From a virus, in IMG/VR virus record IMGVR_UViG_3300045988_144476: a stretch of DNA of 64,000 bases, one strand, 5' to 3'. Each line of letters opens with the position of its first letter. Positions within the stretch are counted from its first letter, which is position 1. The notes under the pieces were generated by a model that was given only the letters and a program-made list of their open reading frames with translations, made no database searches and was not told the origin of the DNA. Below are positions 18,426-31,143 of this stretch, in pieces. The translations under genes were made by a program, and so were the position numbers.

Positions 18426-18887
18426 ATGGAGAGATTAACAGAAAGATACAAAGATCCTATTGCGAACACAGTTTTAATCAAGGAATGTGGGGATAAACTT
18501 TGCAAAAATATTTGTGACGATATTGAATATGATTGTAGCAAATGTGGATTAGAGAAAGCTCTTGAAAAACTTGCTGATTATGAGGATCTAGAAGAATGTG
18601 GCTTGCTTATGAGATTACCGTGTAAGGTTGGAGATGATGTGTATATCATTCCAAGTCCAACTGTTTACAGATTAAATATTATTAATGGTTATGAGAAGCT
18701 CAATAAAATATGCCATCAGCATGTTGGGACTATTGTGATTACTGCTGGACATTGGTACGCGACAAGTCGTGAAGAATATGGCGTTTACAATGAAAAAGTT
18801 CTTAATGATATTGCTTTTGGAACGACATGGTTTCTCACCCGTGAAGAAGCTGAGAAGAAGTTGGAGGAGATGAAAAATGAAATTTAA
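18426..18887 (+). CDS. hypothetical protein (153 aa)
   Basis: RBS agaggtg upstream. Confidence 0.65.
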   Translation: MERLTERYKDPIANTVLIKECGDKLCKNICDDIEYDCSKCGLEKALEKLADYEDLEECGLLMRLPCKVGDDVYIIPSPTVYRLNIINGYEKLNKICHQHVGTIVITAGHWYATSREEYGVYNEKVLNDIAFGTTWFLTREEAEKKLEEMKNEI

Positions 18888-18904
18888 TTTTAAGGAGGCA
18901 CAAA

Positions 18905-19114
18905 ATGGGAAGAAACATTTATTTTACGGATAGAGAATTAAGCATGGTAAGAGACTATGTGTTTGAAGCAACTGATATTTTAGGCAATGCTTCTGATACA
19001 GCAAAACAAGTAGACGAAGACATGGAGAATGGTCTTGGCTCTGCTTTGCGAAAATTATACAAAGGTTGTATTGGAGAATCAAAATACGCAAAGTATAAAA
19101 CCAAACGAGGATAA
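18905..19114 (+). CDS. hypothetical protein (69 aa)
   Basis: RBS aaggagg upstream. Confidence 0.6.
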   Translation: MGRNIYFTDRELSMVRDYVFEATDILGNASDTAKQVDEDMENGLGSALRKLYKGCIGESKYAKYKTKRG

Positions 19115-19158
19115 AATATTATTAATCCGATAGAGAAGAAGTTAGAGGAGATAATATC

Positions 19159-19569
19159 ATGTTAAAAGAAGAATTAACATTTGAAAGAAAAACAGCAGCA
19201 GTAATTACAGTAGACTTTTCTGCACCTAAAATTGAAGGATACGCAATGGCTTGGTTAAAACTTTGCAATAATGCAAGGGAGTATAAGAGCATTATCTGGA
19301 AGATTAAGAATGATTCAAGTAATGAAGTTTATGTTTGGTGTAATCCGGATCGTAAAGATGAAGTTATAGAATTTCTTACAGGTATTGTGGAATTTTATGA
19401 AGGAGACAAGATTACTCCAATAGGCAAAGTAATTGATGTGTCCGAAGAAGTAATCGGTGTTCCTGTTTATGAATATAAAACCACTTGCGACTCAGATGAT
19501 GAACAATGGTATGAGGATATTGATCATGCTATTTCAAATTGGGCAGCAATACAAGAAGTTTTTGATTAA
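19159..19569 (+). CDS. hypothetical protein (136 aa)
   Basis: RBS agaggag upstream. Confidence 0.65.
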   Translation: MLKEELTFERKTAAVITVDFSAPKIEGYAMAWLKLCNNAREYKSIIWKIKNDSSNEVYVWCNPDRKDEVIEFLTGIVEFYEGDKITPIGKVIDVSEEVIGVPVYEYKTTCDSDDEQWYEDIDHAISNWAAIQEVFD

Positions 19570-19586
19570 GGAAGGTGATATATATC

Positions 19587-19892
19587 ATGAAGAAAATTAT
19601 TAATGGTAAAAAATATGATACAGATACAGCAAAGGAAATCGGTTACTGGAACAATGGACATTTTCGTAATGATTTTTATTATGCTGAAGAAACTTTATAT
19701 AAAAAGAAAACTGGAGAGTTTTTCTTATATTGTGAAGGTGGGGCGGCTAGTAATTATAGTCACAAAGAAGGAAATGTGATGATAGGTGGCTGGGAATTAA
19801 AATCAATTACAGAAGATGAAGCTAAGAAATGGGCCGAAGATCATTTAACTGTGGAAGAATATGAAGGAATATTTGGAAAGGTGGAAGAGTGA
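19587..19892 (+). CDS. hypothetical protein (101 aa)
   Basis: The ATG at 19587 lies about 9 nt after gaaggtg. Confidence 0.6.
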   Translation: MKKIINGKKYDTDTAKEIGYWNNGHFRNDFYYAEETLYKKKTGEFFLYCEGGAASNYSHKEGNVMIGGWELKSITEDEAKKWAEDHLTVEEYEGIFGKVEE

Positions 19893-20260
19893 AATTTAAT
19901 GAAAAATGTAAAATTCGATTACTTAGAGATTTTTCGAGAGATGACTTGAGAATGGGTGATGTTTTTATTGTTTATAAATATCGAAATTTTGCTGATAACA
20001 TTACATATCTTAATCCGAAAACATATCTTAAGTTTAATCCAAAAGATGTAAAGGAACTTTCAGACAATGCAAAAGAATACGTTTTTAAAATATTTATTTC
20101 AGATAAATATGTCGGAAAAATGTCTGTTATAGCTGATTCGGTAGAGGATGCTTATAACACTATGCTAGAGATAATCAGACATAGATCATATAAAGCATTT
20201 CCGGAATTAGATATTGAATATAGTGTTCAAATAATTGAAGATGGAGATGATAAAGAATGA
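19889..20260 (+). CDS. hypothetical protein (123 aa), GTG start
   Basis: 4-nt overlap; no in-frame ATG nearby. Confidence 0.5.
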   Translation: MKFNEKCKIRLLRDFSRDDLRMGDVFIVYKYRNFADNITYLNPKTYLKFNPKDVKELSDNAKEYVFKIFISDKYVGKMSVIADSVEDAYNTMLEIIRHRSYKAFPELDIEYSVQIIEDGDDKE

Positions 20261-20538
20261 CATTAAAAGAATTATTTAAACAAGGAAAGCTTCATATTGG
20301 TGTAAGCGAAATAAAACAATTTTCAGCAGTTAATATTGGATTTATGAATAATGGAAAAGAAGATGAAACGCAGCTTGATGTTACACATAATATTCTAACA
20401 AAGTATGGACAGGAAGAGTTAAATGAATTATTTGAATGGTTTGCAAAAGAATGTAAAGTGCCAAAAGATTCTGTTACATATTGTGAAGTCGTAGCTACTG
20501 CAAATACATATAAAGAATTAATTGAAATGGGATATTGA
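20257..20538 (+). CDS. hypothetical protein (93 aa)
   Basis: 4-nt overlap with the upstream gene. Confidence 0.6.
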   Translation: MTLKELFKQGKLHIGVSEIKQFSAVNIGFMNNGKEDETQLDVTHNILTKYGQEELNELFEWFAKECKVPKDSVTYCEVVATANTYKELIEMGY

Positions 20539-20547
20539 GGTGATATT

Positions 20548-20949
20548 ATGGGATCATGTTATTGGGTTAAATTAAAAGTTAAATTAAATAACAAAGCGAA
20601 AGCAATTAAGGCTTTACAGGATAAAATATCCAGAGCTAAGGAAGAAAATGTAGATTATGGATTAACATCATATGTAAAACACAAAAATTATAATTTAAAT
20701 AATTTTGATGATTTAATCAAAATATTTCTCTGTGAACATCAAGGTGATTTTGAGGTTGAGACTGTAGAAAATGGATTTACAAAGTATTCTTCTGGATTTG
20801 ATGCTTCTTATGGATGGGAAAGCCTAATGATTGAGATGTTTAAAGAGATTTCTCCATATCTGGAAGACAGATCAAAATTATATATTAATTGTGATGATGG
20901 ATGGTACGAATTTGTTGTAGCAAATGGAAAATGGTATCAAACACATTGA
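20548..20949 (+). CDS. hypothetical protein (133 aa)
   Basis: RBS gaggtg upstream. Confidence 0.65.
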   Translation: MGSCYWVKLKVKLNNKAKAIKALQDKISRAKEENVDYGLTSYVKHKNYNLNNFDDLIKIFLCEHQGDFEVETVENGFTKYSSGFDASYGWESLMIEMFKEISPYLEDRSKLYINCDDGWYEFVVANGKWYQTH

Positions 20950-20958
20950 GGTGATTAA

Positions 20959-22239
20959 ATGAAAGATTACTTGTTAGAGAAGTTCTTTGAAACAAAACGA
21001 TGGGAAGCAGCAATTGAAACAGGAGTTATCAAAGGAATTAATAAATCTGAGTTAAGAAGATTATGTAGTCCGGAATACAGATTAGCATTATTAAATGCGA
21101 TCATTACTGATAATTACGAAATAGCCCCTCCTCATCAAGCATTGATTCCAAAAGGGAATGGAGAATTTAGAACAGTTTATGTTAATGAAGGAATGGACCG
21201 GATCTTCTTATCAATTGTAAATGATATGTTATTTGAACTTGATCATGATTCTATTCATCCTGCTTGTAAGAGTTATCAGAAAGGAATTGGATGTGGTAAG
21301 GTTGTTCAAGAAGTTGTAAGATGGATCGAAAATACTGACAGACAAGATATTGGATTCAAGGCAGATCTAAGTAAATATTTTGATTCAGTTCCAATTGAAT
21401 TTATTGATAAAGAGTTTGATCGGATTGAAAATAAATTTGGAAAATCAAAGATTATTAATGTGTTGCGAAAATATTATCATTGTGATTTATGTTTTGATCC
21501 GGATGGAAATCTTATTGAACATTATCAGAGTCTTAAACAGGGTTGTGCAATTGGTTCATGGCTTGCAGATCGTGTGTTATATCATATTGACGAACGATTA
21601 GATAGTTTATGTTCGACATGGGGAACAAGAGGAACATATATAAGATATTCTGATGATATATTATTAATTTCTCGGGAATATGAAAAAGGAATGGAAATCC
21701 TTAAAGAAGAACTTGAGAAAATGAATATGAAATTAAATCCAAAGAAAGTAGAACTACTTGATAAAGATCGATGGTTTAAATTCCTCGGATTTATGATCAA
21801 GGGTGATCAGATTACATTATCCAAAAGCAGAGTGAAAGATTTTCAGAAAGAAATTGAATCTCGGACCATTAAAAAGAGAAATACAACCAAGACAAAAGCA
21901 ATAAATAGTGTAAACAGATACCTATATAAAGGTGATGGAAAATATTCTTGGGCGACATCAGTACTTCCAATCATCAATGTACAGAAAGATGTTGATACGT
22001 TGAATGAATTTGTTATGGATTGTATTAGAGCTGCAGAAACAGGGAAAAAGAAAATTGGTGGTCTTGGGTGTGTGATCGATAAAGAAAATTATACAATTCT
22101 TCGAGGAACTGGAAGAAATGTAAAAGCAAATAAAATAAAAACAGAAAAAGATATTGAAGGATATAAGAGTATCCGGTGTATGCAGAATGCATTGAATTAC
22201 AGCAGGCCGTTGTATGATACTTTGGTGAGGGAGATGTGA
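20959..22239 (+). CDS. reverse transcriptase (group II intron-like / unclassified prokaryotic RT)
   Basis: RT motifs in order: IPKGNGEFRTVYV, KADLSKYFDSV, LKQGCAIGSWLAD, YIRYSDDILLIS (YSDD at 21646-21657), LNPKKVELL and FKFLGFMI. A C-terminal extension of about 140 aa follows. Confidence 0.85.
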   Translation: MKDYLLEKFFETKRWEAAIETGVIKGINKSELRRLCSPEYRLALLNAIITDNYEIAPPHQALIPKGNGEFRTVYVNEGMDRIFLSIVNDMLFELDHDSIHPACKSYQKGIGCGKVVQEVVRWIENTDRQDIGFKADLSKYFDSVPIEFIDKEFDRIENKFGKSKIINVLRKYYHCDLCFDPDGNLIEHYQSLKQGCAIGSWLADRVLYHIDERLDSLCSTWGTRGTYIRYSDDILLISREYEKGMEILKEELEKMNMKLNPKKVELLDKDRWFKFLGFMIKGDQITLSKSRVKDFQKEIESRTIKKRNTTKTKAINSVNRYLYKGDGKYSWATSVLPIINVQKDVDTLNEFVMDCIRAAETGKKKIGGLGCVIDKENYTILRGTGRNVKANKIKTEKDIEGYKSIRCMQNALNYSRPLYDTLVREM

Positions 22240-22241
22240 TT

Positions 22242-22604
22242 ATGTATATTGTACCAAGGATAGAAGTAAGAGAAGCAGAAGATATTATTGATTTTGCTAC
22301 GACAATGGATTCAGATATGAATCTATACTTTGAAGAAAAGAAAACGTTGTTAGAAGATATACCAAGAGGTGAGAATCCCGGAACTGCATATTATTCGTTT
22401 TATCCAGCGGTAATAAATCCTAAGCTGTTTTATGCGTATATTTTGGCAATTAAGTATTTTCAAGATGGTACATGTCAATGGAAATTATGTTTAACATCTA
22501 GGGAAAATAAAAAGTGCCATATGACATTAGGAATTATGAGAGGAACTGAAGAAGAAGCGAAAGAACGACTTGCAACAATTCTTACTTCTGGAAGTATTAG
22601 ATGA
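22242..22604 (+). CDS. hypothetical protein (120 aa) immediately downstream of the RT
   Basis: The ATG at 22242 lies 8 nt after ggtgagggag. The GTG at 22236 overlaps the RT stop codon. Confidence 0.6.
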   Translation: MYIVPRIEVREAEDIIDFATTMDSDMNLYFEEKKTLLEDIPRGENPGTAYYSFYPAVINPKLFYAYILAIKYFQDGTCQWKLCLTSRENKKCHMTLGIMRGTEEEAKERLATILTSGSIR

Positions 22605-22620
22605 GAATTGAGGTGTAATT

Positions 22621-23202
22621 ATGGGCTGGACTTCTTATCATGCAGAATTCTACAAAAACGGAACTGTTGATCGGAAAAAAGAAATTGATAAACTTTGGAC
22701 TCAGGCAGAATGTAAAAAATATCCAGAGTTAAATGTATTGAAATCAAGAATGGTTGGTTCTACATATTATGCAGCAATTGAAGAAAAAGAGAAAGGTGTC
22801 GTTAAGAATGTATTCGCTGTAGTTGTATTAACATCTATAAATATGAAAGATTATTTTAATTTTTCATATAAAGAGATGGATGAATCGGTTGGACCATATT
22901 GTTATGATTGTCCAAAAGGAATTCTTGATTTGCTAACAGAAACGGATAATGAATATGCAATAAATTGGAGAAACAAGTGTAGAGAAAATCTTCAGAAGAA
23001 AAAAGAAAAATTAACAAAAGGAACGTTGCCGGTTGGAAGTATTATTAAGGTCAAAAAATATAATGGTGAGTACGTAATATTACAAAAAATGTCACCAATG
23101 TATCAATTCAGGAGAGCCTGGTGGTATTGTGCAGAATCTAATACATATTATCCACTCAATCATATACCAGATGAATTTGAAATTATTAAGAAGGGAGCTT
23201 AA
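22621..23202 (+). CDS. hypothetical protein (193 aa)
   Basis: RBS gaggtg upstream. Confidence 0.65.
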   Translation: MGWTSYHAEFYKNGTVDRKKEIDKLWTQAECKKYPELNVLKSRMVGSTYYAAIEEKEKGVVKNVFAVVVLTSINMKDYFNFSYKEMDESVGPYCYDCPKGILDLLTETDNEYAINWRNKCRENLQKKKEKLTKGTLPVGSIIKVKKYNGEYVILQKMSPMYQFRRAWWYCAESNTYYPLNHIPDEFEIIKKGA

Positions 23203-23204
23203 TT

Positions 23205-23822
23205 ATGAAGTTAAATGAAAAAATTATAGAAGCCATTGAAAACAATGGATTTTGTTGTAGTGCAGTTGTGGAACAGGATAATGGATTTTATATTGAACTT
23301 TATCAAGACACGCCTGCAGGAGAAGATTGGCATGTAACAATCTGGTTTAATGGAAGTGACAATGAATTTATAAATTCATTCAGAAAGTATGCCGAAGATT
23401 TTGATGTTGATGAAGAAGCAGAAATTTGGATTAAATCAAGAGGTGAGCATGGAGTCCCAAGCAGCATCAGCCTATTAGTTAAAGATGCTGAATGGAAAAA
23501 AGAAAAGCTTGGATTGTTACTTAAAGATCTTGAAGATATTGAACACGCAAATTTTAACGAAGGACTACTCACATTGATTATCTTGGACAATATAGATTGT
23601 GATGAGCCAGCTTCAGTATTTATGATTCCATTGATAAAACAAATAGAAGTAGAAAATCTTGCCAAAACAATTCATGCAACAAGTACAGATAAAATTGAAG
23701 ATGAATTTGAAGATTTATTAAGAGAAAAGAGAATTAAACATGAGTGGATCGGTCGTATATATGATGCTAACAGAGAAAAAGATTGGATTGACGATAAGAT
23801 CTCAAGAGTAATTGTAGGATAA
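23205..23822 (+). CDS. hypothetical protein (205 aa)
   Basis: RBS aagggag upstream. Confidence 0.65.
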   Translation: MKLNEKIIEAIENNGFCCSAVVEQDNGFYIELYQDTPAGEDWHVTIWFNGSDNEFINSFRKYAEDFDVDEEAEIWIKSRGEHGVPSSISLLVKDAEWKKEKLGLLLKDLEDIEHANFNEGLLTLIILDNIDCDEPASVFMIPLIKQIEVENLAKTIHATSTDKIEDEFEDLLREKRIKHEWIGRIYDANREKDWIDDKISRVIVG

Positions 23823-23849
23823 TGATGAATTAAGCAAAGGAATGATAAA

Positions 23850-23936
23850 ATGGCATTTAAGATAGTAATTGGATGGTTTGTATTTATGTATGGAACTGCA
23901 TTGATTATGATTATAAAAGAAAGGAAAGAGATGTAA
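23850..23936 (+). CDS. possible 28-aa single-TM peptide
   Basis: Sequence MAFKIVIGWFVFMYGTALIMIIKERKEM; its stop codon overlaps the next ATG. Confidence 0.35.
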   Translation: MAFKIVIGWFVFMYGTALIMIIKERKEM

Positions 23937-24157
23937 TGCCTGAAAATATTTGGTTATATGGATTTGATGGTTTTGAAGGAACCAAAACAGTGGGTTTTGT
24001 AATTGCAAAATCATCAACAGAAGCGGTTGATAAAGTTTGGGATATGTATAATGACTTTGCAACTGATTATAATTTGTCAGATCTTGTGGTATGGAAACCA
24101 GAAGAAGATGATAACTATAGAGAAGATTATCCTAGTGTGATGGAAATTGTTTATTAG
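23936..24157 (+). CDS. hypothetical protein (73 aa)
   Basis: The internal ATG is preceded by aaggaaagag. Confidence 0.55.
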   Translation: MPENIWLYGFDGFEGTKTVGFVIAKSSTEAVDKVWDMYNDFATDYNLSDLVVWKPEEDDNYREDYPSVMEIVY

Positions 24158-24165
24158 TTATAATT

Positions 24166-24179
24166 AATGTTTTAATCAA
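24166..24179 (+). repeat. intergenic motif copy AATGTTTTAATCAA
   Basis: Exact variant after a stop codon. Confidence 0.9.
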
Positions 24180-24240
24180 ACCACAATTAAATAATATGCA
24201 TGAACACACATGAAATATACAATATCAATGAACTTTAATT

Positions 24241-24304
24241 AAGCTGCTTTAATACCAGCAGAGAGCCTGGTTTATCACCAGGCTTACTGCTGGTACAGCA
24301 GCTT
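24241..24304 (+). ncRNA. GC-rich three-tier hairpin (element A1)
   Basis: Three stacked stems: aagctgct/agcagctt, taccagcag/ctgctggta and agcctggt/accaggct, about 25 bp in total. Confidence 0.5.
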
Positions 24305-24305
24305 C

Positions 24306-24326
24306 ATATGAAACTGTTAAAGAAAT
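24306..24326 (+). repeat. conserved 21-nt box, copy 1 (ATATGAAACTGTTAAAGAAAT)
   Basis: Follows hairpin A1 directly. Confidence 0.8.
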
Positions 24327-24398
24327 GTGTAGAATTGATTGAGTGTATTAGAACCGGAGTATAACGGAAGATAAATGAGATATATTTTGTTCAAGGCT

Positions 24399-24459
24399 AG
24401 ATCCGTTCACTGGATCTGAACTGAAGATAATATCTTCAGAAAGATCCAGGAATGGATCT
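24399..24459 (+). ncRNA. three consecutive hairpins (element A2)
   Basis: agatcc/ggatct, then ctgaagat/atcttcag, then agatcc/ggatct. The first and third hairpins have identical arms. Confidence 0.45.
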
Positions 24460-24464
24460 CCACC

Positions 24465-24485
24465 ATATGAGACTTTTATAGAAAT
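24465..24485 (+). repeat. conserved 21-nt box, copy 2 (ATATGAGACTTTTATAGAAAT)
   Basis: Lies 5 nt after element A2. Confidence 0.8.
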
Positions 24486-24557
24486 ATACCGGATATATGA
24501 GTTTATCTAAAAAAAATATGTAGAATAACATTTATTAACAAGGTAATTAAATTCAAT

Positions 24558-24623
24558 AGAAGGCGATAGATCAGCGAGGCTGCCCGGATTATCTTCCTGG
24601 CTGCCCGCTTTCCATACGCCTCT
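24558..24623 (+). ncRNA. GC-rich element A3 with a direct repeat
   Basis: Closing stem agaaggcg/cgcctct. GGCTGCCCG is repeated at 24578 and 24599. Confidence 0.4.
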
Positions 24624-24624
24624 G

Positions 24625-24645
24625 ATATGAAACAGTTTAAGAAAT
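24625..24645 (+). repeat. conserved 21-nt box, copy 3 (ATATGAAACAGTTTAAGAAAT)
   Basis: Coincides with the ORF-track start at 24627, which has no RBS. Confidence 0.8.
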
Positions 24646-24695
24646 ATTCCAAGATTACTGAGCTAATATATAATTTTACAAAGGAGATAGATGAA

Positions 24696-25199
24696 ATGAT
24701 TGAAAGAGAAGAAATGATGACTTATTATGATAACCTTATGGATTGGGTAGAAAGAGGACATGCGTTTAGGATTGATTTAAAGACAAAATCAATGCAGTTA
24801 CTTTCAAATGAAAAATGTATTGAGAATGGAGATTGGTTTCCTGATGCTGATCTGATTCATATTAATGGAATTTGTGATGAAGAAGACAAAACGAAATTCT
24901 GTTTGGACATTATTGAAGAGCTTTACCATAATTACAAATATTCAACTCCAACAGAGAAGAGTGAACGATATAAACAGAGAAATTATTTTAAAGCTTTATC
25001 TCCAGATGAAATGACTGATGAAGAATTAGTTAACGGTGAAGACAGAAATGTTGCAAAAGCAAAACTTGAAGGATTTATTCTTTGTGCTTCATTGGCCGGT
25101 TATCTTACTTGGGATGAAAAGAAAATGGGCAAATGGTTTTATCAGGGAAAAGATAAGGATCTTGTGATTTTAAGAGAATGGGTGGAGGTAAGAAGTTAA
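24696..25199 (+). CDS. hypothetical protein (167 aa; alternative start at 24627)
   Basis: The ATG at 24696 lies 9 nt after aaggag. The upstream ATG at 24627 lies in the conserved box and lacks an RBS. Confidence 0.6.
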   Translation: MIEREEMMTYYDNLMDWVERGHAFRIDLKTKSMQLLSNEKCIENGDWFPDADLIHINGICDEEDKTKFCLDIIEELYHNYKYSTPTEKSERYKQRNYFKALSPDEMTDEELVNGEDRNVAKAKLEGFILCASLAGYLTWDEKKMGKWFYQGKDKDLVILREWVEVRS

Positions 25200-25202
25200 A
25201 TA

Positions 25203-25559
25203 ATGAAAAAGGAATTGAAGAATTATATATTCAAAACTACAACTACAATGAAAGAATACAATAATAAGAAATGGTATATTAATTCAGATGTAATTCCTGA
25301 ATTTCAGGTTCAAGCAACTTCTATTAATGAAGCGTTATTGAAATATAAAGATTATGTATATAAAGAAGGTATTATTAACATATCTGATAATGCATTAAAG
25401 ACTAAACAGAAAATGTATATTGATACGGTTGATGGTGTAAAACAAGTTGGATATGTAATTACCGGACAGACTGAAATTCTATGTGAAAATTACAAATGGA
25501 TCAAACAATATATTGATTTATGGGTAAAAATACTTACTGTTGTTGATACGGAATTTTAA
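25203..25559 (+). CDS. hypothetical protein (118 aa)
   Basis: RBS ggagg upstream. Confidence 0.65.
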   Translation: MKKELKNYIFKTTTTMKEYNNKKWYINSDVIPEFQVQATSINEALLKYKDYVYKEGIINISDNALKTKQKMYIDTVDGVKQVGYVITGQTEILCENYKWIKQYIDLWVKILTVVDTEF

Positions 25560-25580
25560 TATAAAGGAGAGATAAATAAT

Positions 25581-26765
25581 ATGAATAACTGGAATTATTT
25601 TGATAGCCCAGAATTATATAAAAAAGTAGAAATTCTTTTAAATGATGGTTCTGTTAGACAGGATATGATGATAAAAGGCAAGTATGATACCAATGAATGG
25701 CGTAACTATACAAATCATAGTGTAACAGCTTGGAGATATATTGAAGAGTCTAATAATAAAGAATTAATTAAAAAGGAGAATAAAACAATGATGAAAAACA
25801 CAAGAGAAAACAGAGTAGCAACAATGCAGTCAGCAGGAATTGACACAAAGAAATATTTTAGTATCAATCTTCCAGAAGGACTTAAACCAGGATCAGTGAT
25901 TTCATTAGTTATTGATGAAAATGGTAATCCTGCAATTGCTACAGAAACAGAAGAAAAAACAACTAAAAAGATAATTGATCCTGAACTTGAACAGTATAAT
26001 AGTATTATAAGTCAGATTGAGAATGGTTATGTAAGAAATTCTAAATTACATAGAAGATGGGTAATGGCACAGATGTTCAGAATGCTTAATTCTTCACTTG
26101 GATATAATGAGTGTTTGAAACGTAGATATGATTATAAGTATCAGTTTAATATGCTGATTGATGAACTGAATGCTCTTGGACATTTACAGAGGGAAGATCC
26201 TGAAGAGTTTAAAGACAGATTAAGTTTCTTCAATAAAGATGTGGTTATTGCTTTATGTAATGATTATTATGAAAAATTAAAGAAAGTAGTAGATAGTCTT
26301 CCAGAAAAGAAATGCGAAGGCAAACCGTATGTAAGAATTAGTGGAAATAATATTTTTATTGATGATTTAAATGATAAATTATATATTCCAATTTTAAACA
26401 GTATTATAGGTATTCAATATTGTACTTCTTATGAAGCACTTAGCAACTTATTAAAGAATTTTGTAAGGCTTTTTGTAAATAGATATACACTTCCTTACAA
26501 CACAAGTAAATGTGCAGCATGGGTAGATGCTTATAAAGGAGCTGGAGCTTATTATACAATGATGAACATGGTTAAATTTCATAATTGTTTTATTACTAAT
26601 AATACTACCGGAGAAGTTTACATAGGAATGAAAGCAGTTGGATATCTTAAAACGTTAAATGTTGTTCATGAGGGTTATGGATACAGAATGTTTGCCGAAA
26701 TGAATAGAATGATTGAAGAAAATCATTTTGATTTTAATGGAAGAATGAGAGAAATTTATTCTTAA
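25581..26765 (+). CDS. hypothetical protein (394 aa)
   Basis: RBS aaaggagag upstream. Confidence 0.7.
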   Translation: MNNWNYFDSPELYKKVEILLNDGSVRQDMMIKGKYDTNEWRNYTNHSVTAWRYIEESNNKELIKKENKTMMKNTRENRVATMQSAGIDTKKYFSINLPEGLKPGSVISLVIDENGNPAIATETEEKTTKKIIDPELEQYNSIISQIENGYVRNSKLHRRWVMAQMFRMLNSSLGYNECLKRRYDYKYQFNMLIDELNALGHLQREDPEEFKDRLSFFNKDVVIALCNDYYEKLKKVVDSLPEKKCEGKPYVRISGNNIFIDDLNDKLYIPILNSIIGIQYCTSYEALSNLLKNFVRLFVNRYTLPYNTSKCAAWVDAYKGAGAYYTMMNMVKFHNCFITNNTTGEVYIGMKAVGYLKTLNVVHEGYGYRMFAEMNRMIEENHFDFNGRMREIYS

Positions 26766-26835
26766 AACTTTCATAATGCATAATTAATACGAAAGCAAAT
26801 ATATATTGCAATTTCCATAAGGTATATTAATTTAA

Positions 26836-26906
26836 TTAATCAGGCTATGTATGATGACATCTAGGAGGCGCATCGCCTCCATATGTCATCTCCAGAGCCT
26901 GATTAA
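26836..26906 (+). ncRNA. GC-rich three-tier hairpin (element B1)
   Basis: Three stacked stems: ttaatcaggct/agcctgattaa, atgacat/atgtcat and ggaggcg/cgcctcc (3-nt loop). Confidence 0.5.
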
Positions 26907-26926
26907 TATGAAACATTTATAGAATT
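26906..26926 (+). repeat. conserved 21-nt box, copy 4 (ATATGAAACATTTATAGAATT)
   Basis: Follows hairpin B1 directly. Confidence 0.8.
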
Positions 26927-27050
26927 ATATACGAATATACAGAATGGAAATAATTACCAGAATTTCCAGAAATTACATGTTATTCCGATTTATCGGATAG
27001 TGTATAATGGTATTATATACCAAAAACGAAAATATGTTCGATTTTTTATA

Positions 27051-27079
27051 TTGAAAATGTTTTTGTAATATGGTATAAC
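27051..27079 (+). promoter_or_regulatory. sigma70-like promoter
   Basis: TTGAAA, 17-nt spacer, TATAAC, with a TGn extended -10. It lies 50 nt upstream of the CDS at 27129. Confidence 0.5.
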
Positions 27080-27128
27080 AATATTAATTTAAGCAAACAC
27101 ATGTTCGAAAAATCGGGAGGAATGCAGC

Positions 27129-27398
27129 ATGAGAAAAAAGACAACATTCGTGGTAATAACCAAAAGTAATAGAGTAAAGGAAATCGTGTCTTTGGAAAGT
27201 CAAGATGATGCAATAAGTTATGTTGAAGAGAAATATTTATATTACATAAAAACGGTTCCAAGATATGATTATAAAAACTCGTTTATTAAAGATGATCGAA
27301 GTCTTGCAGTTGTATCAGCTGGAATATTTAGTGTAAAGATTATGATCTATCAGGGAAATGTTCAAAAGATAATGTCTGGATGGAAAGACAAGAAATAA
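27129..27398 (+). CDS. hypothetical protein (89 aa)
   Basis: RBS gggagg upstream. Confidence 0.6.
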   Translation: MRKKTTFVVITKSNRVKEIVSLESQDDAISYVEEKYLYYIKTVPRYDYKNSFIKDDRSLAVVSAGIFSVKIMIYQGNVQKIMSGWKDKK

Positions 27399-27410
27399 GT
27401 TGATATTAGA

Positions 27411-27443
27411 AGATCAGTACTAATTGGTACTGGTCTTTTTTTA
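27411..27443 (+). terminator. rho-independent terminator
   Basis: 10-bp stem agatcagtac/gtactggtct, then T7. Confidence 0.8.
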
Positions 27444-27466
27444 TTACAGAAAAGGAGTTTGATAAC

Positions 27467-28135
27467 ATGATGGAAAGAGAAGTAATAGTTTCAATTAAAG
27501 ATTGTGAGAAAATTACAGGATTACATTTTACATTAAATCATCAGGGTAAGATGAAAGGTATGCAGAGCTTATCAACTAGCTGCACATGTAATGAACATTG
27601 TAAAAGCAGATCAAAAAATACATCAACGGTATGCTCTCATTGTTATGCTCAGAGACAAATGAAAATATATAAAAATCTTGAAAAGTGTTTGATCAAGAAT
27701 ACGAAGATTCTTACAGAACAGGTTATCTCAAAAGAAAATTTGCCAATTATTAATGCGTTATATTTTAGACTTGAAGCATTTGGAGATTTAAATAATACAA
27801 CACAAGTAATTAATTATTTTAATTTATGTAAAAAGAATCCGGATGTCAAATTTGGATTATGGAGTAAAAATTTATGGTTGATTGAAGCTGCAATTAATGA
27901 TGGAAATTCCAAACCCAAAAACTTGCAGATCATTTATAGTATTCCTTTTCTAAATGATCGAAATGATAATATTTTTATTTTATATCCTTTTGTTGATAAG
28001 ATTTTTACAGTATTTGAAAAAAATTTTATTAAGAAAAATGATATAGAAATTAATTGTGGGGCTAAGAGCTGCTTATGTTGTGGAAAATGTTATAAGAAAA
28101 ACAAAGTAAAGTATATAAACGAGCGTCTTAAATAA
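27467..28135 (+). CDS. Cys-rich (metal-binding?) hypothetical protein (222 aa)
   Basis: Cys clusters STSCTCNEHC, VCSHCY and CLCCGKC; RBS aaaggag. Confidence 0.65.
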   Translation: MMEREVIVSIKDCEKITGLHFTLNHQGKMKGMQSLSTSCTCNEHCKSRSKNTSTVCSHCYAQRQMKIYKNLEKCLIKNTKILTEQVISKENLPIINALYFRLEAFGDLNNTTQVINYFNLCKKNPDVKFGLWSKNLWLIEAAINDGNSKPKNLQIIYSIPFLNDRNDNIFILYPFVDKIFTVFEKNFIKKNDIEINCGAKSCLCCGKCYKKNKVKYINERLK

Positions 28136-28147
28136 TGATTTAATCAA
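28134..28147 (+). repeat. intergenic motif copy AATGATTTAATCAA
   Basis: Exact copy overlapping a stop codon. Confidence 0.9.
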
Positions 28148-28184
28148 ATACATTGTATTGCAATCAGAAAGGATGTATTGTATA

Positions 28185-28754
28185 ATGAAAACAGCAAAAG
28201 GATATAAATTATTTAGAATATTGAAATCACAGCCAGGTAAATTATTTCCACTTTATGTTTATGCAACAGAAGAAATCCCTATTGGAGAATGGCTTAAAGC
28301 TAAAGAAGGACAAAAGACAGAAAATGGAAAGGTTAAAAGTAAACTTGGACCATTAAGATTTAGACCTGGGTTTCATATTAATGATATAGCTCCATATGTT
28401 TCTCATATTGGAAAGAAGGTAAATGGAAAGATTTGCTTTATGAGGCCGGATACAGTATGGGCTGAAGTTGAATATTGTATTGATCATGATTATTGTGATG
28501 AGGCAAAACAAAATGGTTATTGGAATGATATATTTTATCCGGTAAGAGCTGATCTTGATTATATTCCTATGAATGGATTTTATCGGTATAAAACAAATCC
28601 TACAATGACTGGAGAATGGATTATTGCCGGTGAGATGAAAGTATTGAGGATTTTGAGTGATATAGAAGTGAAAGAGATTTGTGATGAAGTTGGATCTGCT
28701 TATCTTCCAAGAGAACATGAAATTGATTTAAGAGAATATGGTTTTGCTGCGTAA
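28185..28754 (+). CDS. hypothetical protein (189 aa)
   Basis: The ATG at 28185 follows aaagga. The track TTG start at 28158 is less likely. Confidence 0.6.
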   Translation: MKTAKGYKLFRILKSQPGKLFPLYVYATEEIPIGEWLKAKEGQKTENGKVKSKLGPLRFRPGFHINDIAPYVSHIGKKVNGKICFMRPDTVWAEVEYCIDHDYCDEAKQNGYWNDIFYPVRADLDYIPMNGFYRYKTNPTMTGEWIIAGEMKVLRILSDIEVKEICDEVGSAYLPREHEIDLREYGFAA

Positions 28755-28854
28755 TATAATGAAGAACGACAAATGGAGATTATAGATTTTATTTAATACC
28801 GGAGAAGGAATTTACGCAGCATGACAATGAAATAATAGTTTTGAGGTGAAAAAT

Positions 28855-29034
28855 ATGAAGCAATTATATATTGTTGTAGATATTCCAAGATATCCAGAGG
28901 ATAATCCATCTTATAAATATGTTGTAAGAGCAAATGATTATAAAGAAGCAATTGAAATAGTGAAAAGAAAAACTGGACGAGAATCATGGGAGTTTGATGC
29001 GGATTTAGCGGAAAATGATGAAGTGTGGGAGTAG
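28855..29034 (+). CDS. hypothetical protein (59 aa)
   Basis: ATG lies 7 nt after gaggtg. Confidence 0.55.
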   Translation: MKQLYIVVDIPRYPEDNPSYKYVVRANDYKEAIEIVKRKTGRESWEFDADLAENDEVWE

Positions 29035-29042
29035 ATGATTTT

Positions 29043-29306
29043 ATGGAACATGTGAATATATTTGAGACAAAAACAGATGAAGAACTGTTAACATTGTATG
29101 ATCAGTTTCTTGAAGCAGAGAAATGTGGTAGATTTTTCGATGGTAATGAACTTGGAAAAATTAAAAGAGAGTATAAAACTGATTTTGGTGCAAATACAGT
29201 ATTAATGCTACAAATAGAACTGACACATACCATAGCGGATAGATGGTACAAAAATAATTCAAAATGTACCGGAATGTGTTGCATGGAAAATATTGATGAA
29301 ATTTGA
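29043..29306 (+). CDS. hypothetical protein (87 aa)
   Basis: The internal ATG follows gggag. Confidence 0.55.
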   Translation: MEHVNIFETKTDEELLTLYDQFLEAEKCGRFFDGNELGKIKREYKTDFGANTVLMLQIELTHTIADRWYKNNSKCTGMCCMENIDEI

Positions 29307-29325
29307 CTTTTGATGGAGAAATTAT

Positions 29326-29478
29326 ATGTATGATAGAAATGAAATCAAACGGATAATCGATGAATCAGTATTTATGGCAAAGTATACTTGTATGATAAAA
29401 GATGATCATAAAAGAGAAACTATTGCAATTGAAGAAGTGAAAACACGATTGTATGACGCATTTGGAATCGAGGAATAA
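29326..29478 (+). CDS. hypothetical protein (50 aa), not in the ORF track
   Basis: RBS ggaga lies 6 nt upstream; fills a gap. Confidence 0.45.
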   Translation: MYDRNEIKRIIDESVFMAKYTCMIKDDHKRETIAIEEVKTRLYDAFGIEE

Positions 29479-29481
29479 AAT

Positions 29482-29670
29482 ATGACAGAGCAAGAGAAAA
29501 CAATATTAAAATATTTAGAAGAATCGTATTCCGGTGCAAAAATAATGCACGATGAAGAGTGTATGATCAGGATTGCAAGAGCTATGGATGCATTCAAAAC
29601 AGATCCTAATGTTGATGTAACGGAATATTTTACACAGAAATTTTTGAACGAGATTTATTCATTAAACTAA
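29482..29670 (+). CDS. hypothetical protein (62 aa)
   Basis: RBS gaggaa upstream. Confidence 0.55.
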   Translation: MTEQEKTILKYLEESYSGAKIMHDEECMIRIARAMDAFKTDPNVDVTEYFTQKFLNEIYSLN

Positions 29671-29683
29671 AGGTGGTTACAGT

Positions 29684-29908
29684 ATGCAAAATCCATATAA
29701 TTCAATGTCAAATGGTGATCTTTATATAATTTATAAAGATTATTTTCATTCAAAAGAGACTGGAAATAGATGTGAAAGTTTTGTACCATACGCAAAAGAA
29801 ATCAAAGAAAACATTGGTGGTGATTATACGCTGCGAGAAGGGATAGAAGAAGCTAAAAAAGATTTCTTTGAAGAAGTATGCAGAAGATTTTTTGAAAATA
29901 TGAGATGA
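29684..29908 (+). CDS. hypothetical protein (74 aa)
   Basis: RBS aaaggtgg upstream. Confidence 0.6.
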   Translation: MQNPYNSMSNGDLYIIYKDYFHSKETGNRCESFVPYAKEIKENIGGDYTLREGIEEAKKDFFEEVCRRFFENMR

Positions 29909-29932
29909 TTAAAATAAAAGGAGCGTGATTAA

Positions 29933-30145
29933 ATGGCAGGAAGAAGAGATTGGTATAATATTTCAACGTTTGTTTGCCCAGAGTGCGGTACGGAAATGCC
30001 GATTCCGAGATGGCATGGACATAGAAGAGAGAAAGGACATATTAAAGATTTATATTGTCCGAAATGTAAAAAGACACAGAAATTTAAGGAATTTAATAAT
30101 AAACAGTTTTATAAGACACTTGATGGTGAATTAATTAGTGCGTGA
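29933..30145 (+). CDS. zinc-ribbon protein (70 aa)
   Basis: CPECG...CPKCKK pattern; RBS aaggag lies 8 nt upstream. Confidence 0.6.
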   Translation: MAGRRDWYNISTFVCPECGTEMPIPRWHGHRREKGHIKDLYCPKCKKTQKFKEFNNKQFYKTLDGELISA

Positions 30146-30159
30146 GGAGGTAGGGAAAT

Positions 30160-31143
30160 ATGAGTTTTGTCAAAAAGAAGATCTGGTATACATGTGAAGA
30201 AGATCATAAATCTTTTCCTATTACGGAAGATTCTTTGCTACGATATAAAATAAATACACCGAAGGATATTTCGAAAGAAGGAAAAATTCTTATTGAAAAT
30301 TATCTTGGTGGAGTACATACAAGGTGGATATGTAGACCTTTCAATCCAGAAACTGATAAGAAGCCTGAACCCAATTATTATGTCCCGTTAAATCGTACAA
30401 TATCAAATAGAATCAAGGCAAAAATAGATCAGATGACTGAAGAAGAAAGGCAAAAAAATAATTGTTTTGCATGTTGTACAGAAGGTGAAGCAGCAGATGA
30501 TTTTCTAGAATATGTTAAAGAACAAGAAGAGTACTTTGCTAAAGAAAAATATATGTCATGTTATACTCCTCGTTCGACTTATGATAAAAAAGATTACAAT
30601 TTAGAAGAAAGGATATATGCCTGTGCTCTTGGAGTAAGAGAGTCTTGTGATAGAAATCATGTAACTTTACCTATGTGTGGCACACCGGCATTTAATGAAC
30701 TTGAAGAAATAATCAAAGATTACGATCCAAGATATCTTCATCCTAAGACAGATGATGATAGGTATAGCAAACTCTATAGAGATGCAAAGAAAGAAGCAAT
30801 AGCGAAAGGCAAAGATCCACAGAAAATTGATGTCATTCAGGAATATCAGAAAGATCGGAAACCGCAGACATCATTATCACCGGAAATGATTAGCAGGTTT
30901 GATAGAATGAGTGATTCTACATTAGCAATGTGGTGTAATTTCAGTAAGAACTGGGCTTGGGTAGTACCATGTTTATTCTTGTGCTTGTTCGTTAATAAGG
31001 GACTTATATCTGCAATTGTACTTATTGTATTAATGATTGCTGGCGAAGTTTATTCTTCAATGGTAAATGAATATGTCTCTGTGATTATTCCATGGTATAA
31101 GAAATCAGGACAGATGATGGAAAAGAGGATATTGAAAAAATGA
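30160..31143 (+). CDS. hypothetical protein with a C-terminal TM region (327 aa)
   Basis: RBS gaggagg; hydrophobic C-terminus. Confidence 0.65.
   Translation: MSFVKKKIWYTCEEDHKSFPITEDSLLRYKINTPKDISKEGKILIENYLGGVHTRWICRPFNPETDKKPEPNYYVPLNRTISNRIKAKIDQMTEEERQKNNCFACCTEGEAADDFLEYVKEQEEYFAKEKYMSCYTPRSTYDKKDYNLEERIYACALGVRESCDRNHVTLPMCGTPAFNELEEIIKDYDPRYLHPKTDDDRYSKLYRDAKKEAIAKGKDPQKIDVIQEYQKDRKPQTSLSPEMISRFDRMSDSTLAMWCNFSKNWAWVVPCLFLCLFVNKGLISAIVLIVLMIAGEVYSSMVNEYVSVIIPWYKKSGQMMEKRILKK

What the first reader, a model, noticed from the sequence alone, without database searches (positions are those of the whole stretch)
24241..24645. Family of dissimilar GC-rich hairpins, each followed by the same 21-nt box ATATGA[A/G]AC..TT.A.AGAA[A/T]T
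Three units lie in this 470-nt non-coding island, and a fourth lies at 26836-26926.
- Each unit is a GC-rich structured element whose sequence differs between units: A1 is a 25-bp three-tier hairpin, A2 is three hairpins, A3 is a closed domain with direct repeats, and B1 is a three-tier hairpin.
- A near-identical box follows each one within 0-5 nt. The boxes lie at 24306, 24465, 24625 and 26906.
- The box starts with ATG and gives MKLLKKCVELIECIRTGV*, MRLL*, MKQFKKYSK... and MKHL*. None of these has an RBS, in a genome where almost every real gene has GGAG.

A variable hairpin with a constant flank is not a terminator (no T-run) and not a CRISPR array. Possible explanations are processed small RNAs sharing a 3' or 5' module, recombination or homing target sites, hairpin-type promoter or priming signals, or decayed duplicated gene 5' ends.
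Basis: seen in the sequence. Interest (0 to 1): 0.7.

Follow-up and report, generated by a model that had tools for sequence, protein, structure and literature searches.

The report
Phage reverse-transcriptase RNA modules in tandem
The four "hairpin plus box" elements are tandem copies of a ~140-nt structured non-coding RNA that always accompanies a phage reverse transcriptase (group UG27); this RNA class was predicted in 2022, so the window holds a new example, not a new kind of element.

Summary
Four long hairpins are each followed within 0-3 nt by ATATGARACNNTTWWAGAAWT. They occur on the + strand only and nowhere else in the 64 kb.

The context explains them. An ORF 2 kb upstream (20959-22239) is a UG27-group reverse transcriptase (RT). 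The flanking ORFs are its two known companion genes, RTas346 and RTas337. Mestre et al. 2022 predicted an ncRNA with "three long stem-loops" at exactly this position in about 1,450 gut phages.

Comparison with about 90 related loci adds detail:
- **Self-contained modules.** Each hairpin is the arm (P2) of a closed ~140-165-nt module. Two covarying helices, P1 and P1b, clamp it.
- **The box.** It is the conserved 3' side of a large internal loop.
- **The hairpin tip.** It is usually a UAUC, UACC or UAAC tetraloop.
- **Copy number.** It ranges from 1 to 6 per array.
- **Conservation.** The design holds in phages with very different base composition, which probably infect different host phyla.

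Wobble pairs sit in the RNA (+) sense in P1 but in the complementary sense in P2. This suggests the RT copies P2 into a hairpin ssDNA, as retrons do. That step is inferred, not shown.

Verdict: a new member of a known, functionally unsolved kind. Interest is moderate.

The parts
20959..22239 (+). Reverse transcriptase of group UG27 (426 aa) with an intact YSDD catalytic motif
   Evidence: PADLOC RT_UG27 scores E 3.5e-209 and 693 bits over the full length; the next best model, UG26, scores 118 bits. Pfam RVT_1 matches. Y230 S231 D232 D233 are invariant in alignment A1.
24213..24350 (+). ncRNA module A1. P1 is 24214-24220 with 24343-24349; P1b is 24224-24229 with 24334-24339; the P2 hairpin is 24241-24305; the box is 24306-24326.
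   Evidence: The MFE fold of the whole unit (-51.3 kcal/mol) gives P1, P1b and P2. Covariance model R1 scores 97 bits. P2 has z = -8.0.
24354..24367 (+). Small spacer hairpin CCGgagtataaCGG between modules A1 and A2
   Evidence: Its stem changes in a compensatory way between phages: CCGT/ACGG, TCGG/CCGA, CTGG/CCAG.
24369..24508 (+). ncRNA module A2. P1 is 24369-24376 with 24501-24508 (AGATAAAT / GTTTATCT); P1b is 24380-24387 with 24491-24498; P2 is 24395-24464; the box is 24465-24485.
   Evidence: The unit fold is -49.5 kcal/mol. R1 scores 94.7 bits. P1 differs in sequence from that of A1 but stays complementary.
24532..24669 (+). ncRNA module A3. P1 is weaker, 24533-24539 with 24662-24668; P1b is 24542-24548 with 24653-24659; P2 is 24557-24624; the box is 24625-24645. 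It ends 11 nt before the AAAGGAG ribosome-binding site of RTas346.
   Evidence: The unit fold is -38.5 kcal/mol. R1 scores 96.4 bits.
24696..25199 (+). RTas346 (cluster 346), first conserved companion protein of UG27 RTs; function unknown
   Evidence: PADLOC RTas346 scores E 1.6e-46. The AF2 model has pLDDT 88.6 and no PDB fold match. It is 37% identical to the syntenic ORF in L045.
25203..25559 (+). 118-aa ORF between the two companion genes; no family match
   Evidence: No convincing match in PADLOC, NCBIfam, Pfam or PHROGs; the only hit is a sub-threshold NCBIfam one (16 bits against a cut-off of 78).
25581..26765 (+). RTas337 (cluster 337), second conserved companion protein; function unknown
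   Evidence: PADLOC RTas337 scores E 5.1e-96. The AF2 model has pLDDT 73.7 and no PDB fold match at E <= 0.001. It is 30% identical to the syntenic ORF in L045.
26811..26951 (+). ncRNA module B1, downstream of RTas337. P1 is 26811-26818 with 26944-26951 (ATTTCCAT / ATGGAAAT); P1b is 26822-26828 with 26934-26940; P2 is 26837-26905; the box is 26906-26926.
   Evidence: The unit fold is -52.8 kcal/mol. R1 scores 107.7 bits. Related loci have one or more units at the same position after RTas337: L001 15622, L002 14119, L042 11511, and three units in L083.

Best explanation
Each "hairpin + box" is the core of a self-contained, rod-shaped non-coding RNA module of about 140 nt. This RNA is the cognate partner of the phage's UG27 reverse transcriptase (RT).

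**Shown**
- The modules lie in tandem on the coding strand inside the operon RT - array - RTas346 - RTas337 - further unit(s).
- Each module has this layout: P1 (8 bp), then a purine-rich internal loop (AAG opposite NGA), then P1b (5-8 bp), then a large asymmetric internal loop, then P2.
- The 3' side of the large loop is the invariant box, AUAUGAAACnnUUAAAGAAAUGU.
- P2 is a 20-35-bp hairpin of free sequence, usually tipped by UAUC, UACC or UAAC.
- P1, P1b and P2 all covary. The box and the loops do not vary.

**Inferred**
1. The array is transcribed with the operon.
2. Each module folds on its own.
3. The RT, perhaps with RTas346 or RTas337, recognises the conserved loops next to the P1/P1b clamp.
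4. The RT reverse-transcribes the box and P2 into a complementary-sense single-stranded DNA hairpin. In logic this resembles a retron: a1/a2 clamp, conserved recognition region, variable msd hairpin.
5. A phage would therefore make several different hairpin ssDNAs.

**Unknown**
- How synthesis is primed.
- Where synthesis starts and stops.
- What the DNA is for. Anti-defence is a reasonable guess and has not been tested.

**My probabilities**
- About 0.9 that these are UG27-associated ncRNA modules.
- About 0.45 that P2 is the template and the product is a hairpin ssDNA.
For: **Context**
- RT_UG27 scores E 3.5e-209, RTas346 1.6e-46 and RTas337 5.1e-96.
- The catalytic YSDD motif is intact.
- Mestre et al. 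2022 (PMC9226505) describe the same gene trio in 1,447 gut-phage genomes. They predict an ncRNA with three long stem-loops in the intergenic region before the first companion gene (their text writes "cluster 336" there and "cluster 346" elsewhere).

**Specificity**
- Box matches fall 229 on the + strand against 1 on the - strand.
- All 189 covariance-model hits in the 80 loci are on the RT strand. The 43 hits in the further loci are on the gene strand wherever RT or RTas genes are present.
- 43-44 of the 48 exact box stretches in IMG/VR lie in UG27 loci.
- The window holds only these four units.

**Structure**
- P1 duplex energy is -9.97 kcal/mol within a unit and -6.65 between units, p = 2.7e-13.
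- On MAFFT alignment A5, P1 + P1b are 93.4% paired against 69.6% in shuffles. 12 of 14 pairs change on both sides, 0 of 500 shuffles reach this, and slid controls give 31-54%.
- Among orthologues, P2 is 86% paired against 76.7% in shuffles, with 10 of 19 pairs changed on both sides and 0 of 500 shuffles reaching this.
- The junction from the box to P1 is 36-38 nt in 37 of 44 units.
- All four window units fold into P1-P1b-P2 unaided.
- A second phage group with much higher G+C has the same layout and a box variant, 91 on + against 1 on - (helices read by eye). Its RTas genes are syntenic.

**Evidence that cDNA is the product**
- P1 has G.U in the RNA sense 21 times and A.C 4 times.
- P2 has the opposite bias: opposed A.C 25 against G.U 6.
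- Counting G.U pairs in the MFE folds gives 37 in the + sense and 78 in the - sense. Fisher's test against P1 gives p = 2.4e-6.
- The - sense folds better in 39 of 44 and in 19 of 22 hairpins. After strict dereplication it folds better in 16 of 17, with G.U 9 against 25, p = 0.009.
- Unpaired bases in P2 are C-rich and G-poor in the + sense, whereas the conserved loops are G-rich and C-poor (odds ratio 5.9).
- A preprint that cannot be read here (10.64898/2026.09.22.753630) uses "UG27 ncRNA" 11 times, hairpin 33 times, cDNA 24 times and ssDNA 5 times.
Against: - No transcript, cDNA or protein-RNA data are available here. Transcription of the + strand is inferred only from gene orientation.
- The strand asymmetry of P2 is statistical, about 2-4 to 1, not absolute. 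G.U pairs in the + sense also occur in P2. The wobble and loop-composition measures are not independent of each other.
- Selection to keep unpaired G out of the RNA rod could give a similar picture.
- The hairpin representatives are partly related to one another. Strict dereplication leaves only 17.
- The invariance of the box would be explained equally well if it were itself a short template or purely a protein-binding site.
- UG27's nearest characterised relatives are Class 2 UG RTs (UG17/DRT10, UG28/DRT9, UG2/DRT2). They make repetitive DNA from short or circularly read templates, not single hairpin copies.
- Neither companion protein shows a recognisable fold, so they give no mechanistic support.
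Confidence: 0.6

Rival explanations
1. The module is a scaffold, and the short template lies inside the conserved box. The RT would bind P1/P1b/P2 as structural arms and copy only part of the single-stranded box. It might do so repeatedly by slipping between the two GAAA(C/U) motifs 12 nt apart, giving tandem-repeat or homopolymer-like DNA as in DRT10 (UG17) or DRT9 (UG28).
For: - The box is single-stranded and almost invariant in sequence, while everything around it covaries.
- After UG27 and UG26, the best PADLOC matches of the RT are UG17 (86 bits) and Drt9 (73 bits).
- DRT10 makes protein-primed tandem repeats from an ncRNA (abstracts of PMC12632851 and 10.64898/2026.06.29.735271).
- A helix next to a template (P1b/P1) is how telomerase-like enzymes set a template boundary (general knowledge).
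Against: - The GAAAC/GAAAU near-repeat is not kept in the high-G+C phage group, where the box reads AATCAAGAC..TATAGTTAC.
- This model does not explain the complementary-sense wobble and composition bias of P2.
- It does not explain why P2 is long, highly variable and multiplied into up to six different copies.
Confidence: 0.2
2. Rolling-circle reverse transcription, as in DRT2. The P1/P1b clamp would bring the two ends of the ~120-145-nt loop-plus-P2 template together. The RT would then jump from the 5' end back to the 3' end and make concatemers of box + hairpin.
For: - The clamp brings the template ends together.
- UG27 and UG2 are both Class 2 UG RTs (PMC9226505).
- The size of the enclosed region, 120-161 nt, is like the ~120-nt DRT2 template (my recollection of Tang et al. 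and Wilkinson et al. 2024; not checked here).
Against: - No concatemer reading frame exists. The inner length is not preferentially a multiple of 3, and stop-free frames are essentially absent on both strands. A Neo-like gene is therefore excluded.
- I saw no conserved microhomology between the two template ends.
Confidence: 0.1
3. The functional molecule is the RNA alone, or an antisense (- strand) RNA. It could be, for example, a protein sponge, a processing signal or a regulator of RTas346 translation, and it is never reverse-transcribed.
For: - The last module ends 11-30 nt before the ribosome-binding site of RTas346 in many loci, so it is part of the 5' leader.
- The - sense of P2 folds better, which an antisense RNA would also explain.
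Against: - The elements occur essentially only beside this RT, across two very different phage groups.
- P1 has its wobble pairs in the + sense, which argues against an antisense RNA as the only functional form.
- All ORFs of 150 aa or more in the 64 kb are on the + strand.
- Units also lie downstream of RTas337, where they cannot act as a leader for RTas346.
Confidence: 0.08
4. The box is a phage-specific promoter, or the hairpins are transcription terminators or RNase III sites, unrelated to the RT.
For: - A 21-nt conserved box resembles single-subunit RNA-polymerase promoters in size.
- Long imperfect hairpins resemble the T7 RNase III sites (general knowledge).
Against: - No terminator-like sites were found, and sigma-70-like sites are not enriched: 21 against 24 expected.
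- The box lies between covarying helices that span it.
- It is absent from the other 60 kb of the window.
- It is conserved in a phage group with very different composition and translation signals.
- In IMG/VR it is tied to UG27 loci.
Confidence: 0.02

Closest known systems
UG27-associated ncRNA of gut phages (Mestre et al. 2022, NAR 50:6084, PMC9226505)
   Same: It has the same RT group, the same two companion genes (clusters 346 and 337) and the same position, the intergenic region before cluster 346. The paper's description, "three long stem-loops", matches A1-A3. Gut phages carry it, and no defence role is predicted.
   Different: The paper treats the three stem-loops as one ncRNA. Here each stem-loop is an independent module closed by its own P1/P1b. 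Copy number ranges from 1 to 6 per array, and one to three further units lie after cluster 337. A conserved box and tetraloop are also defined here. I could not see their Supplementary Figure S6 or their covariance model, so some of this may already be shown there.
Retron msr-msd ncRNA
   Same: A terminal inverted repeat clamps the RNA (a1/a2, here P1). A conserved region lies next to it. A long hairpin of free sequence follows, and in retrons that hairpin is the part copied into DNA. Wobble statistics here fit a DNA-sense hairpin.
   Different: The RT is not a retron RT: NCBIfam retron_St85 scores 60 bits against a cut-off of 235. The RNA lies downstream of the RT, not upstream. There are several tandem copies. 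The element is phage-encoded, and no effector of a known retron type is present. A 2'-5' branch has not been tested.
DRT2 (UG2) ncRNA, which templates the concatemeric neo gene
   Same: It is a Class 2 UG RT with a structured ncRNA whose template ends are held together by a stem.
   Different: No stop-free concatemer frame exists. The RT scores only 49 bits on the Drt2 model. The ncRNA lies downstream and in several copies.
DRT9 (UG28) and DRT10 (UG17) ncRNAs
   Same: They belong to the nearest characterised RT groups, and each ncRNA carries a conserved single-stranded template.
   Different: The box has no U-tract or clear repeat template. The RT scores 693 bits on UG27 against 73-86 bits on these models. 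The element is phage-borne and is not found in defence islands.
CRISPR array
   Same: A short conserved sequence alternates with variable sequence in tandem, and copy number differs between strains.
   Different: The variable part is itself a hairpin. The period is 145-190 nt. The conserved part is about 60 nt split on both sides of the hairpin. No cas genes are present, and no matches to targets were found.

Membership tests
UG27 RT system of gut phages (Mestre et al. 2022) | RT belongs to group UG27 | tested here: met
   PADLOC RT_UG27 scores E 3.5e-209 and 693 bits, covering residues 1-426 of 426.
UG27 RT system of gut phages (Mestre et al. 2022) | Companion genes cluster 346 and cluster 337 lie next to the RT | tested here: met
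   RTas346 scores E 1.6e-46 at 24696-25199 and RTas337 scores E 5.1e-96 at 25581-26765.
UG27 RT system of gut phages (Mestre et al. 2022) | Encoded in a phage genome | tested here: met
   All ORFs of 150 aa or more in the 64 kb are on one strand. The window carries Pol III alpha, an intein-bearing ligase and tRNAs. Its closest relatives are IMG/VR viral contigs of 100-250 kb.
UG27 RT system of gut phages (Mestre et al. 2022) | Structured ncRNA with long stem-loops in the intergenic region before the first companion gene | tested here: met
   Three modules lie at 24213-24669, directly before RTas346, with covariation support.
UG27 RT system of gut phages (Mestre et al. 2022) | Match to the authors' covariance model | not testable with these tools
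   The model is not in Rfam: there is no hit at the gathering threshold and none at E <= 0.01 in this region. The paper's supplements are not held.
Retron | RT of the retron clade | tested here: not met
   NCBIfam retron_St85_RT scores 60 bits against a cut-off of 235. PADLOC retron RT models score 56 bits or less, against 693 for UG27.
Retron | Inverted repeats (a1/a2) closing the ncRNA, and a long msd hairpin | tested here: met
   P1/P1b covariation and the P2 hairpins are structural analogues.
Retron | Single ncRNA upstream of the RT; branched RNA-DNA (msDNA) product | tested here: not met
   The modules lie downstream of the RT in several copies. The branched product cannot be tested without experiments.
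DRT2 / Neo | Concatenated template gives a stop-free reading frame | tested here: not met
   Concatemers of the clamped region or the whole unit were stop-free in only isolated cases, and the inner length shows no multiple-of-3 preference.
DRT9 / DRT10-type short-template ncRNA | Short single-stranded template with realignment repeats or a homopolymer tract | tested here: inconclusive
   GAAAC and GAAAU lie 12 nt apart in the box of this phage group, but the near-repeat is not kept in the second group. There is no U-tract.
CRISPR array | Direct repeats with unique spacers, cas genes nearby, spacers matching targets | tested here: not met
   No Cas family matches in the flanking ORFs. The variable parts are self-complementary hairpins. 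There are no meaningful matches elsewhere in the window.
Intrinsic terminator | G+C-rich hairpin followed by a T-run | tested here: not met
   0 terminator-like sites in 23800-27300. The box follows each hairpin instead.
Diversity-generating retroelement | Template and variable repeat pair near the RT | tested here: not met
   No long near-identical direct repeats in 15000-32000; the longest family is 38 nt at 66-74% identity. The RT classifies as UG27.
Any Rfam family | Score at or above the gathering threshold | tested here: not met
   There are no hits in the region at the gathering threshold. The best sub-threshold hit is P14 sRNA at 25.6 bits against 45, on the opposite strand.

The most novel reading that the evidence does not exclude
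A phage carries a tandem array of retron-like modules. Its UG27 RT turns them into a set of different hairpin ssDNAs, a "multi-msDNA" repertoire whose stems evolve fast and whose copy number varies between strains. The phage would use these DNAs during infection, for example to titrate or mislead host defence or DNA-metabolism proteins. This would be the first templated hairpin-DNA factory on the phage side of the arms race.
Probability: 0.3. Interest if true: 0.8.

Novelty: new member of a known kind. Interest (0 to 1): 0.45.

Why it matters
UG27 is the one large group of UG/Abi reverse transcriptases found mainly in phages, not in bacterial defence islands. In the literature I could read, its function is unknown. 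Its RNA partner is the key to what it synthesises.

This analysis gives a concrete, testable anatomy:
- independent ~140-nt modules, each closed by P1/P1b;
- an invariant single-stranded box;
- a hairpin arm of free sequence with a conserved tip.

It also gives a sequence-based argument that the arm functions in the complementary (DNA) sense. If that is right, abundant human-gut phages make families of hairpin ssDNAs. That would be of interest for phage counter-defence and for programmable in-vivo ssDNA production.

If a recent preprint on "UG27 ncRNA" already shows this, the finding is a correct rediscovery.

Tried and rejected
1. **Rfam.** No family matched the region at the gathering threshold or at a loose E-value.
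2. **Promoter or terminator.** Nothing is enriched. The box plus 30 nt has no stable fold of its own.
3. **Box pairing with the 5' flank.** A first test with the wrong segments was negative. A position-by-position search showed no covarying partner for the box itself. The real helices, P1 and P1b, lie further out.
4. **Restriction-site decoy.** GATC, CCWGG and GCWGC looked frequent in the stems. However, palindromes are not enriched (256 against 231 expected 4-mers, 49 against 59 6-mers), and these sites are not avoided in the genome.
5. **Guide-target idea.** The hairpin arms have no matches beyond chance elsewhere in the window.
6. **DRT2-like concatemer gene.** No open frame exists.
7. **Strand test from substitutions among close orthologues.** There were too few events: 3 A.C against 1 G.T.
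8. **Companion proteins.**
   - Pfam, PHROGs and NCBIfam found no informative domain, and a PDB sequence search gave no significant match.
   - AF2 models with Foldseek against the PDB gave no match at E <= 0.001.
9. **Phage GenBank records.** There is no similar annotated record, only a 340-nt, 67% match to an unannotated fragment.
10. **The 2026 preprint.** It could not be opened. Only word counts were obtained.
11. **ORF 27467-28135.** It is not a paralogue of RTas346, despite a similar ribosome-binding site and start region.
Full report
**1. Observation**

The region 24158-24695 is non-coding and lies between an ORF ending at 24157 and a gene starting at 24696. It holds three long hairpins, and a fourth lies at 26837-26905.

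- Each hairpin folds far better than shuffled sequence: -32 to -43 kcal/mol, z -3.6 to -8.0.
- Each is followed within 0-3 nt by ATATGARACNNTTWWAGAAWT, at 24306, 24465, 24625 and 26906. No other good copy exists in the 64 kb.
- A2 and A3 are best described as single long imperfect hairpins. For A2 the single hairpin gives -39.1 kcal/mol and three small hairpins give -26.3.
- Rfam has no family for these elements.

**2. Context**

All ORFs of 150 aa or more in the window are on the + strand. The window looks like a large phage: Pol III alpha, an NAD ligase with an intein, a P-type ATPase and tRNAs.

- The ORF at 20959-22239 is a reverse transcriptase (RT) of group UG27 (PADLOC E 3.5e-209, full length).
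- The ORFs flanking the elements are RTas346 (24696-25199) and RTas337 (25581-26765), the two families known to accompany UG27 RTs.
- The RT keeps its YSDD motif.

Mestre et al. 2022 (PMC9226505) found this trio in 1,447 dereplicated gut-phage genomes and saw no enrichment in defence islands. With CMfinder and R-scape they predicted "a putative conserved ncRNA with three long stem-loops" in the intergenic region before the first companion gene. They noted that CRISPR spacers target that region and that experiments are lacking. A1-A3 are an instance of that RNA.

A preprint dated September 2026 mentions "UG27 ncRNA" 11 times, hairpin 33 times, cDNA 24 times and ssDNA 5 times. It could not be opened, so I have only word counts.

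**3. Comparative data**

An alignment of UG27 RTs retrieved 80 viral loci with RT identity of 85-60%.

- *Group 1 (L001-L044, A+T-rich like the window).* Names that sources give to related proteins point to Blautia, Eubacterium and Ruminococcus. The box is found 229 times on the RT strand and once on the other. It occurs in arrays of up to 6 units with a period of 145-190 nt.
- *Group 2 (L045-L080, about 48% G+C by eye, no GGAG-type ribosome-binding sites).* An array of about six hairpins follows the RT directly. Each is followed by the variant (A/T)ATCAAnnnnnTAnAGnnA(T/C)G(C/T), 91 on + against 1 on -. The gene order RT - array - RTas346 - RTas337 - unit is kept.
- *All of IMG/VR.* The exact box occurs in 48 stretches, and 43-44 of them are UG27 loci.
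- *Locus L083.* It has three units after the RT and three more after RTas337. The position of B1 can therefore also hold an array.

**4. Anatomy of a unit**

- A 5' segment (..CAAGGTAT..TTYAAT) lies before each hairpin.
- A 3' segment continues past the box to ..TGAG.
- The tip motif TA[T/C/A]C is present in 37 of 44 representative units.

The 8 nt just upstream of CAAGG pair with the 8 nt that start at the last G of TGAG. The sequences differ from unit to unit but stay complementary. In the window they are AATATAC/GTGTATT, AGATAAAT/GTTTATCT and ATTTCCAT/ATGGAAAT.

- Duplex energy within a unit is -9.97 kcal/mol and between units -6.65, p = 2.7e-13.
- RNAalifold on a plain MAFFT alignment of 13 units recovered this helix (P1) and a second one (P1b, GUAUUU/AAAUAC type).
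- Counted on that alignment, 93.4% of cells pair against 69.6% in shuffles. 12 of 14 pairs change on both sides, 0 of 500 shuffles reach this, and slid controls give 31-54%.
- The hairpin arm P2 covaries among orthologues: 86% paired against 76.7%, 10 of 19 pairs changed on both sides.
- The distance from box start to P1 is 36-38 nt in 37 of 44 units.

Each unit is therefore a closed rod: P1, then an AAG/NGA loop, then P1b, then a large asymmetric loop whose 3' side is the box, then P2. All four window units adopt this fold as their unconstrained MFE. Read by eye, Group 2 units show the same helices, for example GUGCGC/GCGCAC and AGAAU/AUUCU in L045.

A covariance model built from the 13 units finds only the four known units in the window. 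It finds 189 units in the 80 loci, all on the RT strand, plus 43 in further loci.

**5. Which strand is structured**

The result differs between the clamp and the arm.

| Helix | G.U pairs in the + (RNA) sense | A.C oppositions (G.U in the - sense) |
|---|---|---|
| P1 | 21 | 4 |
| P2, symmetric internal loops | 6 | 25 |

- Counting G.U pairs in the MFE folds of P2 gives 24 (+) against 56 (-) in Group 1 and 13 against 22 in Group 2.
- The contrast between P1 and P2 gives Fisher p = 2.4e-6.
- The - sense of P2 is more stable in 39 of 44 and in 19 of 22 hairpins.
- After strict dereplication to 17 unrelated hairpins, it is more stable in 16 of 17, with G.U 9 against 25, p = 0.009.
- Unpaired bases of P2 are C-rich and G-poor in the + sense (C 188, G 62). 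The conserved loops are the reverse (G 249, C 129). The surrounding + strand is also G-rich.

These measures are correlated, and the bias is not absolute, but it is consistent. The simplest reading is that the clamp works as RNA and the arm is shaped by selection on its complement. That complement is what an RT would make from a + strand transcript.

**6. Mechanism proposed**

*Shown:* the modules are discrete structured elements tied to the UG27 RT operon.

*Inferred:*
1. They are transcribed with the operon.
2. The RT, with or without the RTas proteins, recognises the invariant loops held by P1/P1b.
3. It copies the box and P2 into a complementary hairpin ssDNA. This is retron-like logic without retron ancestry.

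*Unknown:* priming, end points and biological role.

**7. Rivals**

- *Short template inside the box, as in DRT9 or DRT10.* This fits the invariance of the box and the RT's relatives. It does not fit the P2 asymmetry, and the near-repeat is lost in Group 2.
- *Rolling-circle copying, as in DRT2.* The clamp geometry allows it, but there is no concatemer reading frame.
- *RNA-only or antisense RNA function.* P1's wobble pairs in the + sense and the tight linkage to the RT argue against it.
- *Promoter, terminator or processing signal.* Not supported.

**8. Other negative results**

- Palindromic or restriction-like words are not enriched in the stems.
- The hairpin arms have no target-like matches in the window.
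- The two companion proteins have no recognisable domain or fold. The AF2 models are confident for RTas346 (pLDDT 88.6) and moderate for RTas337 (73.7).

**9. Verdict**

The element belongs to a kind already predicted in 2022 and apparently under study in 2026, so it is a new member of a known kind. The modular anatomy and the strand asymmetry are concrete leads, and may be new. The biochemical product is still inferred.

**Limits**

- There are no expression data.
- Covariance-model E-values are rough.
- The hairpin representatives are partly related.
- The key preprint and the 2022 supplement could not be read.

Noticed in passing
window 49554-49639 (+): Rfam RAGATH-27 RNA scores 89.6 bits, above its gathering score of 76.1. 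It lies inside a tRNA cluster (Gln 47620-47694, Leu 50010-50091, Met 50532-50605).
   Followed up: no
window 50672-50749 (+): ARAGORN calls a tRNA of undetermined identity with a 4-base anticodon (agcg). Rfam tRNA scores 45.6 bits. It may be a frameshift-suppressor-like or otherwise unusual tRNA.
   Followed up: no
window 34785-37952 (+): An NAD-dependent DNA ligase is interrupted by an intein (Hint/Intein_splicing) that carries a LAGLIDADG homing endonuclease.
   Followed up: no
window 41303-43927 (+): A full-length P-type cation-transporting ATPase (E1-E2 ATPase with Cation_ATPase_N and _C) is encoded in the phage.
   Followed up: no
window 24354-24367 (+): A small hairpin, CCGgagtataaCGG, lies in the spacer between modules A1 and A2. 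Its stem covaries between related phages, so the first spacer may carry an extra conserved element.
   Followed up: partly
L083 5484-5995 and 7451-7954 (IMGVR_UViG_3300045988_123155): This locus has three modules after the RT and three more after RTas337, so both flanks of the companion genes can hold arrays.
   Followed up: partly
L096, L097, L098, L100 (one box match each): Each has a single exact box match in a viral contig, with no RT or RTas gene and no covariance-model hit in the DNA held. They may be chance matches or orphan copies.
   Followed up: partly
window 25581-26765 (RTas337), residues ~15-53: The N-terminal small beta domain of the AF2 model has faint Sm/Hfq/Tudor-like Foldseek matches (probability 0.6-0.8, E about 1). 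This is only a hint of a nucleic-acid-binding barrel.
   Followed up: no
window 24680-24715 and 27451-27486: A 36-nt stretch covering the ribosome-binding site and start region is 83% identical between RTas346 and the ORF at 27467-28135 (Pfam GP88 family). The two proteins are otherwise unrelated.
   Followed up: yes
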